Notes under the pieces: generated by a model | Databases searched by the model: none | What the model saw: only the letters and a program-made list of their open reading frames with translations | Told to the model about the DNA's origin: nothing | In this document: one piece after another, positions 1,685 to 3,319 of the stretch | Numbering within the stretch: the stretch's first letter is position 1 | Layout of the letters: the number at the start of each line of letters is the position of its first letter | Translations under genes and position numbers: made by a program | Assembly (NCBI RefSeq): GCF_045037415.1 | Contig: NZ_CP173438.1 | Source of the DNA: Escherichia coli | GTDB taxonomy: Bacteria > Pseudomonadota > Gammaproteobacteria > Enterobacterales > Enterobacteriaceae | Reading direction: 5' to 3' (one strand) | DNA length: 64,000 nt

Positions 1685-1720
1685 AGCCGGATGATCGTTA
1701 ATATCATCCGGCTTCGTTGT
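1685..1720 (+). terminator. Rho-independent terminator downstream of glcA
   Basis: Perfect inverted repeat agccggatgat / atcatccggct with 7-nt loop, followed by T-rich tract, 9 bp after the glcA stop. Confidence 0.6.
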
Positions 1721-1745
1721 GCACAGAAAACCCCCAGCTAGGCTG

Positions 1746-3170
1746 TAATGCCGATCAGTTAAGGATCAGTTGACCGATCCAGTGGCTGTGTAAGAATCCG
1801 GAAACGCTCACTTGTTTCCGGATTTTTTTATGCACATTGGACAGGCTCTTGATCTGGTATCCCGTTACGATTCTCTGCGTAACCCACTGACTTCTCTGGG
1901 GGATTACCTCGACCCCGAACACATCTCTCGTTGCCTTGCCGAATCAGGTACTGTAACGCTACGCAAGCGCCGTCTTCCCCTCGAAATGATGGTCTGGTGT
2001 ATTGTTGGCATGGCGCTTGAGCGTAAAGAACCTCTTCACCAGATTGTGAATCGCCTGGACATCATGCTGCCGGGCAATCGCCCCTTCGTTGCCCCCAGTG
2101 CCGTTATTCAGGCCCGCCAGCGCCTGGGAAGTGAGGCTGTCCGCCGCGTGTTCACGAAAACAGCGCAGCTCTGGCATAACGCCACGCCGCATCCGCACTG
2201 GTGCGGCCTGACCCTGCTGGCCATCGATGGTGTGTTCTGGCGCACACCGGATACACCAGAGAACGATGCAGCCTTCCCCCGCCAGACACATGCCGGGAAC
2301 CCGGCGCTCTACCCGCAGGTCAAAATGGTCTGCCAGATGGAACTGACCAGCCATCTGCTGACGGCTGCAGCCTTCGGCACGATGAAGAACAGCGAAAATG
2401 AGCTTGCTGAGCAACTTATAGAACAAACCGGCGATAACACTCTGACGTTAATGGATAAAGGTTATTACTCACTGGGACTGTTAAATGCCTGGAGCCTGGC
2501 GGGAGAACACCGCCACTGGATGATACCTCTCAGAAAGGGAGCGCAATATGAAGAGATCAGAAAACTGGGTAAAGGCGATCATCTGGTGAAGCTGAAAACC
2601 AGCCCGCAGGCACGAAAAAAGTGGCCGGGACTGGGAAATGAAGTGACAGCCCGCCTGCTGACCGTGACGCGCAAAGGAAAAGTCTGCCATCTGCTGACGT
2701 CGATGACGGACGCCATGCGCTTCCCCGGAGGAGAAATGGCGGAACTGTACAGTCATCGCTGGGAAATCGAACTGGGATACAGGGAGATAAAACAGACGAT
2801 GCAACTGAGCAGGCTGACGCTGAGAAGTAAAAAACCGGAGCTTGTGGAGCAAGAGCTGTGGGGTGTCTTACTGGCTTATAATCTGGTGAGATATCAGATG
2901 ATTAAAATGGCGGAACATCTGAAAGGTTACTGGCCGAATCAACTGAGTTTCTCAGAATCATGCGGAATGGTGATGAGAATGCTGATGACATTGCAGGGCG
3001 CTTCACCGGGACGTATACCGGAGCTGATGCGCGATCTTGCAAGTATGGGACAACTTGTGAAATTACAGACAAGAAGGGAAAGGGCCTTCCCGAGAGTGGT
3101 AAAGGAGAGGCCTGGAAATACCCCACAGCCCCGAAAAAGAGCCAGTCAGTTGCTTAACTGACTGGCATTA
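1746..3170 (+). mobile_element. IS4 insertion sequence, apparently intact (about 1425 bp)
   Basis: Terminal inverted repeats taatgccgatcagttaag (left) and cttaactgactggcatta (right); flanked by 11-bp direct repeat cagctaggctg at 1735..1745 and 3171..3181; single 442-aa DDE transposase ORF. Confidence 0.85.
1830..3161 (+). CDS. IS4 transposase (442 aa from [10 protein letters not shown]...)
   Basis: ORF 1812..3161; start moved to the second Met to give the 442-aa length recalled for IS4 transposase; IS4-family sequence recognised. Confidence 0.8.
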
Positions 3171-3319
3171 CAGCTAGGCTGGGGGTTCCGGAAAGCTTTC
3201 AGCTTTGAGCCAGTTATTAAAACCCCTTTTGATTTGTTAAAACACCTTGCGGTCTGGCAACTGCAAGTGTCAAACAAGAAATCAAAAGGGGGTCCCAATG
3301 GGGAACGAAAAGAGCTTAG

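What the first reader, a model, noticed from the sequence alone, without database searches (positions are those of the whole stretch)
1685..3181. IS4 inserted into a palindromic terminator-like sequence downstream of glcA
Removing IS4 and one copy of the 11-bp duplication reconstructs aaacccccagctaggctgggggtt, an almost perfect palindrome immediately after the glcA terminator. The insertion landed exactly at the dyad centre. IS4 is known for strong target selectivity, and this looks like a good example of such a site; the insertion may also alter 3'-end formation of the glcA transcript.
Basis: seen in the sequence. Interest (0 to 1): 0.35.

Follow-up and report, generated by a model that had tools for sequence, protein, structure and literature searches.

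The report
IS4 inserted in IS200 end hairpin
A copy of the mobile element IS4 sits exactly in the middle of a DNA hairpin, but that hairpin belongs to another, older mobile element (IS200C) parked behind the glcA gene, and IS4 has hit this same hairpin at the same nucleotide in at least nine different places in E. coli genomes; it is an ordinary though neat example of IS4's known liking for terminator-like sites.

Summary
IS4 lies at window 1746-3170 (1425 bp) between exact 11-bp repeats (1735-1745, 3171-3181). Removing it rebuilds AACCCCCAGC-TAG-GCTGGGGGTT, a 10-bp stem with a 3-nt loop, and the duplication is centred on the loop's A.

The palindrome is not glcA-locus DNA. It is the left-end hairpin (nt 12-34) of an IS200C element inserted just after the glcA terminator. 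That hairpin is described as IS200's bidirectional terminator. Strains without IS200C lack the palindrome here; RM14723 has the uninterrupted IS200C. In the window, IS200C is also cut off at tnpA codon 13 and fused to gspK, so sslE to gspJ are deleted.

IS4 occupies the same nucleotide of this hairpin at nine or more loci, in both orientations. At three of those loci IS200 was demonstrably there first. Across 44 distinct IS4 flanks, the target pattern is an A-tract, a GC-rich dyad and a T-tract, often immediately 3' of a gene.

An effect on the glcA 3' end is unlikely, because glcA's own hairpin is intact. This is a known element behaving as expected. The recurrent IS200 hot spot is a small new detail. 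Interest is low to moderate.

The parts
1..1676 (+). glcA (glycolate permease), 3' part, stop at 1674-1676
   Evidence: ORF 12..1676. Annotated glcA in the identical record THO-003.
1686..1712 (+). glcA terminator hairpin GCCGGATGAT-cgttaat-ATCATCCGGC, intact
   Evidence: Inverted repeat I3. RNA fold. Present in strains with and without IS200C.
1719..1745 (+). IS200C left end, nt 1-27: the left arm and loop of the nt 12-34 hairpin, ending with the left copy of the IS4 target duplication (1735-1745). The start is ambiguous by 1-2 nt (1717-1719).
   Evidence: blastn to full IS200C, 27/27. Comparison of occupied and empty sites. Same sequence at other IS200C loci.
1746..3170 (+). IS4, 1425 bp: IRL 1746-1763, IRR 3153-3170, left-end hairpin plus T7 run at 1792-1829, insG ORF 1830-3161. 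A 1-bp deletion near 3110 shifts the last ~16 codons, and PGAP calls it a frameshifted pseudogene.
3171..3181 (+). Right copy of the 11-bp target-site duplication CAGCTAGGCTG
   Evidence: D9.
3171..3336 (+). Rest of the IS200C remnant (nt 17-182): right arm of the hairpin, the tnpA 5'UTR with the SD-sequestering stem-loop (3223-3238 / 3276-3291), and tnpA codons 1-13 (3298-3336)
   Evidence: blastn 166/166 to IS200C. Inverted repeat I4. Rfam STnc490, 120.5 bits, at 3165-3288. Published coordinates nt 69-138 (PMC4513863).
3336..3337 (.). Deletion junction: IS200C tnpA codon 13 fused to the interior of gspK (about nt 560), with no microhomology. The rest of IS200C and sslE through gspJ are lost.
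   Evidence: Three-way comparison of the window, intact IS200C and intact gspK. Annotation of RM14723, Z135-6 and EC-1639.
3338..3754 (+). gspK 3' fragment (pseudogene), followed by gspL (frameshifted) and yghD/gspM
   Evidence: Annotation of the identical record.

Best explanation
Three events produced this locus.

(1) An IS200C element (IS200/IS605 family, no target duplication) inserted immediately 3' of the glcA terminator hairpin. This is shown by comparing occupied and empty sites.

(2) A canonical IS4 then transposed into the 23-nt hairpin at IS200C nt 12-34. IS4 belongs to the IS4 family, whose DDE transposases work by cut-and-paste. Its two staggered cuts lay 11 bp apart and symmetric about the loop, which made the duplication CAGCTAGGCTG. 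The structure is shown; the transposition chemistry is inferred from the family.

(3) A deletion fused IS200C nt ~183 to gspK. Its order relative to event 2 is unknown.

The site was chosen because it fits IS4's intrinsic target preference. That preference is an A-tract about 16-20 nt from the junction, then a GC-rich and usually dyad-symmetric core whose centre is duplicated (C...G, with G at -1 and -4), then a T-tract. This is the layout of a bidirectional intrinsic terminator. The preference most likely reflects symmetric contacts of a transposase dimer with double-stranded target DNA (inferred).

The IS200 hairpin is a recurrent IS4 hot spot. For glcA the insertion is probably neutral. For IS200C it splits the left-end hairpin. 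That hairpin is its published insulating terminator. By its homology to the right-end hairpin, it is probably also the TnpA recognition hairpin. The whole nest is now inert: IS200C is truncated and the IS4 transposase is frameshifted. It is inherited clonally.
For: Identity and boundaries of IS4 and the duplication.

The palindrome belongs to IS200C:
- The same sequence starts every IS200C copy at unrelated loci.
- The literature describes nt 12-34 as a bidirectional rho-independent terminator and nt 69-138 as the SD-sequestering stem-loop (PMC4513863). The window coordinates fit both.
- Rfam STnc490 matches at 120.5 bits.

IS200C was resident first:
- RM14723 has an uninterrupted IS200C at glcA.
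- Uninterrupted IS200 occupies the hypT-side locus in 215 genomes and the ecnB locus in 69 genomes.

Recurrence: the identical junction and duplication occur at these loci.
- Same orientation: glcA, wzzB-hisI, an Rpn/IS66 island, hflC-yjeT, the hypT side, flgL-rne, and an efflux-OMP locus.
- Opposite orientation: ecnB-sugE and mlaA-fadL.

General target rule, from 44 distinct IS4 left flanks in 83 metagenome contigs:
- A at position -18 in 40/44; G at -4 and at -1 in 33/44 each.
- 19/42 non-IS200 flanks have a dyad of at least 4 bp reaching the junction, against 3-4.7% in background (p ~1e-15).
- 15/39 non-IS200 sites lie 4-45 nt after the stop of an ORF of at least 100 aa, against 4.2% in background (p = 2e-11).
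- Sites with both flanks have 11-12 bp duplications and an AAA...TTT frame, including the K-12 site.

After insertion neither half keeps a stable fold.
Against: - The right arm of the IS200 site has only TT and scores 0.9 bits, so the matrix ranks the whole site well but not top in the window.
- The same matrix predicts that the IS200C right-end hairpin is a better target (20.4 bits), yet no IS4 insertion there was found (only the top hits read). The sequence model is therefore incomplete.
- Sequence-directed and structure-directed (cruciform or hairpin) targeting cannot be separated with genomic data.
- The terminator function of the IS200C hairpin is taken from Salmonella IS200 literature. 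A simple terminator scan does not call it, because the T tail is short.
- The order of the IS4 insertion and the gspK deletion is unresolved. No genome has the deletion without IS4.
Confidence: 0.85

Rival explanations
1. One reading: the palindrome is a native terminator-like element of the glcA 3' region, and the IS4 insertion changes how the glcA transcript ends.
For: The palindrome lies 17 nt after the glcA hairpin and has the form of a terminator stem. IS4 sites in general are enriched just 3' of genes.
Against: Strains without IS200C have no palindrome here (L101; K-12-type matches end at the glcA hairpin). The sequence from ~1719 onward is IS200C, identical at unrelated loci. The glcA hairpin itself is untouched.
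Confidence: 0.05
2. IS4 entered an IS200 hairpin only once. The IS200::IS4 composite then spread to other loci by IS200 transposition or by gene conversion between IS200 copies, so the recurrence says nothing about targeting.
For: The junctions and the 11-bp duplication are identical at all loci. IS200 is multicopy, up to about 36 matching places per genome, which gives homology for conversion.
Against: Both orientations of IS4 occur, so there were at least two events. At three loci the same IS200 copy exists uninterrupted in other genomes, so IS200 did not arrive carrying IS4. Only about 28 nt of IS200 lie left of IS4, which is very short for conversion. The hypT-side IS200 keeps its own variant bases within 130 nt of IS4. 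The split left-end hairpin should block TnpA-mediated movement (inferred).
Confidence: 0.07
3. IS4 recognises DNA structure rather than sequence, such as an extruded cruciform or a single-strand hairpin at a replication fork or transcription bubble. The IS200 hairpin is hit because it is a very stable perfect hairpin.
For: 45% of the other sites have a dyad centred on the duplication. The IS200 site is hit repeatedly although one sequence arm is weak. The perfect 10-bp GC-rich stem folds at -18.7 kcal/mol.
Against: More than half of the sites, including the K-12 site (CAGAACCAAGAT) that is the commonest in the sample, have no dyad but keep the AAA...TTT frame and G at -1/-4. Base-specific conservation goes beyond complementarity. 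The equally stable IS200C right-end hairpin was not found to be hit.
Confidence: 0.25

Closest known systems
IS4 of E. coli K-12 (insG; ISfinder IS4), with its classical sites
   Same: Length differs by only 1 bp (1425 here, 1426 in K-12) and the ends are the same. The first 1000 bp are 99.7% identical to the K-12 IS4. The duplication falls in the 11-13 bp range. The target fits the AAA-N~20-TTT pseudo-palindromic frame that I recall from Mayaux et al. 1984 (from memory, not in the held library). De Palmenaer et al. 2008 (PMC2266710) describe 'spectacular' specificity in the target arms for the IS4 subgroup.
   Different: This copy has a 1-bp deletion that shifts the last ~16 codons, plus three private substitutions. 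Its target is inside another IS rather than host DNA.
IS200 / IS200C (IS200/IS605 family) left-end terminator hairpin
   Same: Position (nt 12-34), size (23 nt) and the downstream SD-sequestering stem-loop (nt 69-138) match the published IS200 map (PMC4513863). There is an Rfam STnc490 match.
   Different: Here the hairpin is split by IS4. The element is truncated at tnpA codon 13 and lacks its right end. Terminator activity of the IS200C version (only a TT tail) was not tested.
IS1397 and other insertion sequences that insert into REP/BIME palindromes (Tobes and Pareja 2006, PMC1525189; IS1397 details from memory)
   Same: Insertion at or near the centre of a repeated extragenic palindrome, recurrent at many copies of the same repeat.
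   Different: These are different transposase families and a different kind of palindrome (host REP rather than the end of another IS). IS4 also uses many unique terminator-like sites.
IS231A (IS4 family), with its hot spot in the terminal inverted repeats of Tn4430 and its bent, symmetric target consensus (Hallet et al. 1991 and 1994, cited in PMC2266710; details from memory)
   Same: An IS4-family element with a symmetric target consensus flanked by AT-rich DNA, which preferentially hits the end of another transposon.
   Different: Different host and consensus. The Tn4430 target is a terminal inverted repeat, not a hairpin terminator.

Membership tests
IS4 (IS4 family, IS4 subgroup) | DDE transposase with an IS4 N-terminal domain and DDE_Tnp_1 | tested here: met
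   Pfam Nterm_IS4 1.9e-32 and DDE_Tnp_1 4.5e-32. However, the C-terminal ~16 residues are frameshifted.
IS4 (IS4 family, IS4 subgroup) | About 1426 bp with 18-bp imperfect terminal inverted repeats | tested here: met
   1425 bp. IRL and IRR match at 16/18. 99.4% identical to 1426-bp copies.
IS4 (IS4 family, IS4 subgroup) | Target-site duplication of 11-13 bp | tested here: met
   Exact 11-bp CAGCTAGGCTG. Other copies have 11-12 bp.
IS4 (IS4 family, IS4 subgroup) | Active cut-and-paste transposition of this copy | not testable with these tools
   Only inferred from the family. This copy is probably defective (frameshift).
IS200C (IS200/IS605 family) | Y1 (HUH) transposase TnpA | tested here: inconclusive
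   Only codons 1-13 remain in the window. Full-length copies at other loci encode Pfam Y1_Tnp, 1e-35 (L003). The uninterrupted copy at glcA in RM14723 carries a tnpA annotated as frameshifted.
IS200C (IS200/IS605 family) | Left end with a hairpin at nt 12-34 and an SD-sequestering stem-loop at nt 69-138 | tested here: met
   Reconstructed hairpin at element nt 12-34. Stem-loop at 3223-3291, which is nt 70-138. Rfam STnc490 at 120.5 bits.
IS200C (IS200/IS605 family) | No terminal inverted repeats and no target duplication | tested here: met
   Empty site ggcttcgttt|acattac compared with the occupied site in RM14723.
Intrinsic (rho-independent) terminator | GC-rich stem-loop followed by a U-tract | tested here: not met
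   The stem is strong (-18.7 kcal/mol), but the tail is only TT and the consensus scan does not call it. An A-tract on the 5' side would give UUUU on the opposite strand.
Intrinsic (rho-independent) terminator | Terminates transcription in vivo | not testable with these tools
   Reported for Salmonella IS200 (PMC4513863 and the papers it cites). Not tested for IS200C.

The most novel reading that the evidence does not exclude
IS4 may be a dedicated seeker of terminators and hairpins, with the left-end hairpin of IS200 as its single most reused target. That hairpin is at once IS200's insulating terminator and probably its TnpA recognition site. IS200C in turn lands just after IS4's own terminal hairpin plus T-run, at two fixed positions. 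On this reading the two elements systematically nest in, and disable, each other's ends. That would be a specific inter-transposon antagonism, or a shared 'safe haven' strategy, rather than a by-product of two independent preferences for terminators.
Probability: 0.15. Interest if true: 0.45.

Novelty: new member of a known kind. Interest (0 to 1): 0.25.

Why it matters
For annotation, the locus should be read as glcA, then the IS200C left end split by IS4, then the truncated IS200C fused to gspK. It should not be read as an IS4 in a glcA terminator. This arrangement marks a clone: 167 of 5,426 complete genomes carry it, and they have lost sslE and most of the beta type II secretion genes.

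For transposon biology, the data give a cleaner statement of IS4 target choice: an A-tract, a GC-rich dyad and a T-tract, often the terminator right after a gene. They also add a naturally replicated test case, since the same nucleotide of the IS200 hairpin is hit at nine or more loci in both orientations. That could be used to separate sequence from structure recognition.

Insertion at terminators would also explain why IS4 is tolerated at low copy number with little gene disruption. None of this is very surprising to a specialist.

Tried and rejected
- A half-site weight matrix trained on non-IS200 sites, applied to IS200C, predicted the right-end hairpin (AAAAACCTCCGGCTATGCCGGAGGATATTTATTT) as the best IS4 target. 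Two junction searches gave 12 and 138 genomes. The hits I read (L104, L105, and the L094 type) were IS200C inserted inside IS4, not IS4 in the right-end hairpin. Only the top hits were inspected.\n- A cluster of 7 metagenome contigs has IS4 next to a hairpin that resembles the reverse complement of an IS200 right end (AATAAATATACCTCCGGTATAGCCG|). IS4 is cut at nt 212 there and blastn finds no IS200 homology, so this is unresolved.\n- Literature searches for an earlier description of IS4 in IS200, or of IS4 targeting terminators, found nothing specific in the held library. The old IS4 target papers (Klaer, Habermann, Mayaux) are not held, so what I say about them is from memory.\n- The supplement of Lee et al. 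2016 listing 8 new IS4 insertions in K-12 lines is not held.\n- I looked for a genome with the IS200C-gspK deletion but no IS4, to order the events. None exists in the collection.\n- A simple terminator scan calls neither the glcA hairpin nor the IS200C hairpin, because both T tails are short. 'Terminator' therefore rests on form and literature, not on the scan.\n- The idea that the deletion was made by IS4 was rejected, because the deletion endpoint is 166 nt away from the IS4 end.

Full report
**1. The observation**

Window 1746-3170 is a 1425-bp element. It begins TAATGCCGATCAGTTAAG and ends CTTAACTGACTGGCATTA, so the two ends match at 16 of 18 positions. Exact 11-bp direct repeats, CAGCTAGGCTG, flank it at 1735-1745 and 3171-3181 (D9).

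The element is IS4:
- Its first 1000 bp are 99.7% identical to the IS4 of K-12 MG1655.
- It is 99.4% identical over its full length to 1426-bp IS4 copies.
- Its ORF carries Pfam Nterm_IS4 and DDE_Tnp_1.
- PGAP calls it an 'IS4-like element IS4 family transposase, frameshifted' in identical records.
- The frameshift is a 1-bp deletion near 3110 that changes the last ~16 codons. There are also three private substitutions.

Removing IS4 and one repeat copy gives AACCCCCAGC-TAG-GCTGGGGGTT. This is a perfect 10-bp stem with a 3-nt loop (-18.7 kcal/mol as RNA). The central A (1740) is the centre of both the hairpin and the 11-bp duplication.

**2. What the palindrome is**

A search with the reconstructed empty site showed that similarity to the glcA locus ends just after the glcA hairpin. 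From there to the tnpA start the sequence matches 'IS200/IS605-like element IS200C' at many unrelated places.

The same sequence, GTGCACAGAAAACCCCCAGCTAGGCTGGGGGTTCCGG..., begins IS200C at every locus read:
- between plaP and sbcB;
- after wzzB, hflC and flgL, and at the hypT-side locus;
- after ecnB and mlaA.

Strain Z135-6 has neither IS200C nor the palindrome at this locus and reads ggcttcgttt|acattac. Strain RM14723 has a complete, uninterrupted IS200C at exactly this position, followed by sslE. There is no target duplication, as expected for this family.

Ellis et al. 2015 (PMC4513863) describe IS200 nt 12-34 as a bidirectional rho-independent terminator that protects against impinging transcription. 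[quoted passage not shown] In the window the reconstructed hairpin is element nt 12-34. The second inverted repeat (3223-3238 / 3276-3291, I4) is nt 70-138. Rfam STnc490, the IS200 Hfq-binding RNA family, matches 3165-3288 at 120.5 bits.

So IS4 sits in the left-end hairpin of an IS200C, not in glcA-locus DNA. The IS200C left-end and right-end hairpins are homologous (CCCCCAGC-TAG-GCTGGGGG and CCTCCGGC-TAT-GCCGGAGG). By analogy with IS608, this suggests the left-end hairpin is also the TnpA recognition hairpin (inference).

**3. The rest of the locus**

IS200C is itself truncated. After tnpA codon 13 (…CGATGGAAC, 3336) the sequence continues inside gspK at about nt 560, with no microhomology at the junction. 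The rest of IS200C, sslE, and the genes from there to the 5' part of gspK are missing.

No genome in the collection has this deletion without IS4. The order of the IS4 insertion and the deletion is therefore unknown. The deletion endpoint is not at an IS4 end, so IS4 did not make it.

The whole arrangement is identical in 167 complete genomes and in metagenome contig L087. It is a clonally inherited relic.

**4. Is the hairpin a real IS4 target?**

Junction searches found the identical junction (…AAAACCCCCAGCTAGGCTG|IS4|CAGCTAGGCTGGGGGTT…) in full-length IS200 copies in 49 more genomes in the same orientation and 2 genomes in the opposite orientation.

Reading the flanks gave distinct loci:

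| Locus | Source | IS4 orientation relative to the window |
|---|---|---|
| glcA | window, L087 | same |
| wzzB-hisI | L004 | same |
| Rpn/IS66 island | L005, L096, L097, L017 | same |
| hflC-yjeT | L006 | same |
| hypT side | L007, L098-L100 | same |
| flgL-rne | L095 | same |
| efflux-OMP locus | L021 | same |
| ecnB-sugE | L091 | opposite |
| mlaA-fadL | L092 | opposite |

That makes nine loci, all at the same nucleotide. At three of them the same IS200 copy exists uninterrupted in other genomes: RM14723 at glcA, 215 genomes at the hypT-side locus, and 69 genomes at ecnB. IS200 was therefore resident first and IS4 arrived later.

Three further points argue against a single event spread by composite transposition or gene conversion:
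- both orientations occur;
- only ~28 nt of IS200 lie left of IS4;
- locus-specific IS200 variants are retained next to IS4.

About 218 of the ~5,110 IS4 copies in the collection lie in this hairpin.

**5. The general IS4 target**

An exact scan of metagenome contigs for the IS4 left end gave 83 contigs. Together with the loci fetched earlier these gave 44 distinct left flanks.

- Base preferences: A at position -18 in 40/44, A at -19 and -20 in 34 and 33; C-rich at -14 to -9; G at -4 and at -1 in 33/44 each.
- The eight available right flanks, reverse-complemented, show the same pattern.
- Sites with both flanks have 11-12 bp duplications within an AAA...TTT frame. One example is AAAAATG[CCCTTCATGTTG]TGCATTTTT. 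The K-12 site next to nanX, AAACAC[CAGAACCAAGAT]GCCTATTT, was the commonest in the sample.
- Among 42 non-IS200 flanks, 19 have a dyad of at least 4 bp that reaches the junction and is centred 5.5-9.5 nt from it. Background is 3-4.7% (p ~1e-15).
- Of 39 non-IS200 sites with enough upstream sequence, 15 lie 4-45 nt after the stop of an ORF of at least 100 aa. Background is 4.2% (p = 2e-11).

IS4 thus prefers the layout of a bidirectional intrinsic terminator: an A-tract, a GC-rich dyad and a T-tract. This fits the AAA-N20-TTT consensus I recall from Mayaux et al. 1984 and the insertion in the pheST attenuator (both from memory). It also fits the 'spectacular' arm specificity noted by De Palmenaer et al. 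2008 (PMC2266710).

A matrix trained without the IS200 sites behaves as follows:
- It gives the A-tract half of the IS200 hairpin 12.1 bits. That is above the median of real sites and among the top 10 of ~125,000 window positions.
- It gives the other half only 0.9 bits, because that half has only TT.
- It picks the observed register (11-bp CAGCTAGGCTG) as the best one at that hairpin.
- It ranks the IS200C right-end hairpin higher still, yet I found no IS4 there.

The sequence model is therefore incomplete, and a contribution of DNA structure cannot be excluded.

**6. Consequences**

The glcA hairpin (1686-1712) is intact. The IS200C insertion, not IS4, changed its tail (UUCGUUU to UUCGUUG). 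IS4 lies 23 nt further on and brings its own hairpin plus T7 run (1792-1829). An effect of IS4 on the glcA 3' end is therefore unlikely, though it was not tested.

After insertion neither half of the IS200 hairpin keeps a stable fold. In full-length IS200 copies, IS4 should therefore remove the insulating terminator and probably the left-end recognition structure. In this window the IS200C was dead in any case.

**7. Comparison and verdict**

The element is a member of IS4 by every feature tested, but it is probably defective. The target is a new, recurrent member of the known IS4 target class.

The closest analogues are IS1397 and other elements that insert into REP palindromes (PMC1525189), and IS231A, an IS4-family element with a symmetric target and a hot spot in the ends of Tn4430 (details from memory).

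The finding is real, and its interpretation needs correcting. Its interest is modest. The one detail I could not find described is that the IS200 left-end hairpin is hit again and again by IS4, and that IS200C reciprocally lands after IS4's own terminal hairpins.

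Noticed in passing
window 1712-1719; L003 ~1490-1500; L004-L007, L091, L092, L095 left flanks: Every IS200C copy read sits directly 3' of a hairpin plus a T-rich tail (…TT|GTGCACAG). These are the terminators of glcA, plaP, wzzB, hflC, flgL, ecnB and mlaA. IS200C therefore also seems to target the ends of intrinsic terminators.
   Followed up: partly
L104 2002-4138 (fiu), L105 (bamD-raiA), L093 (nanX site), L094 2948-4803; one search hits H250-H261: Reciprocal nesting: IS200C lies inside IS4 at two fixed positions. One is just after IS4's left-end hairpin plus T7 run (IS4 nt ~84). The other is after its right-end hairpin plus TCTTTTT, 37 nt from the end; this second arrangement (read in L094) probably accounts for the ~138 genomes, including Nissle 1917 and ST131 strains (inferred from match length, those hits not read). 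The fiu copy has a 12-bp duplication around the whole IS4::IS200C, so the composite may move as a unit.
   Followed up: partly
window 3336-3337 and 3338-5466: IS200C tnpA codon 13 is fused to the interior of gspK with no microhomology. sslE and the genes up to gspJ are deleted, and gspL is frameshifted. The beta type II secretion locus is thus a relic in this lineage.
   Followed up: partly
window ~51474-51924 (- strand): A second, diverged IS4-like relic (78-92% identical to IS4, with an internal deletion, truncated by an IS66 element) lies next to N-acetylneuraminate genes. Its outer flank, AAAAAAAAACCATCAGAAAGCTG|, also fits the IS4 target pattern.
   Followed up: partly
L041, L046, L055, L059 (metagenome contigs): These IS4 copies have flanks that do not form a duplication. 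The L059 left flank and the L055 right flank are the two halves of one target site. This points to recombination between IS4 copies (inversions or deletions) or to chimeric assemblies.
   Followed up: no
window ~24990-25030: This is the best unoccupied match in the window to the IS4 target matrix: aaaaacccgccttgtgggcgggttctt (25.2 bits). It is a terminator-like hairpin between convergent ORFs ending at 24926 and 25431.
   Followed up: no
L010, L020, L024, L037, L038, L049, L083: A 212-bp IS4 left-end stump lies next to AATAAATATACCTCCGGTATAGCCG|. That hairpin resembles the reverse complement of an IS200 right end, but no IS200 homology is detectable nearby.
   Followed up: partly
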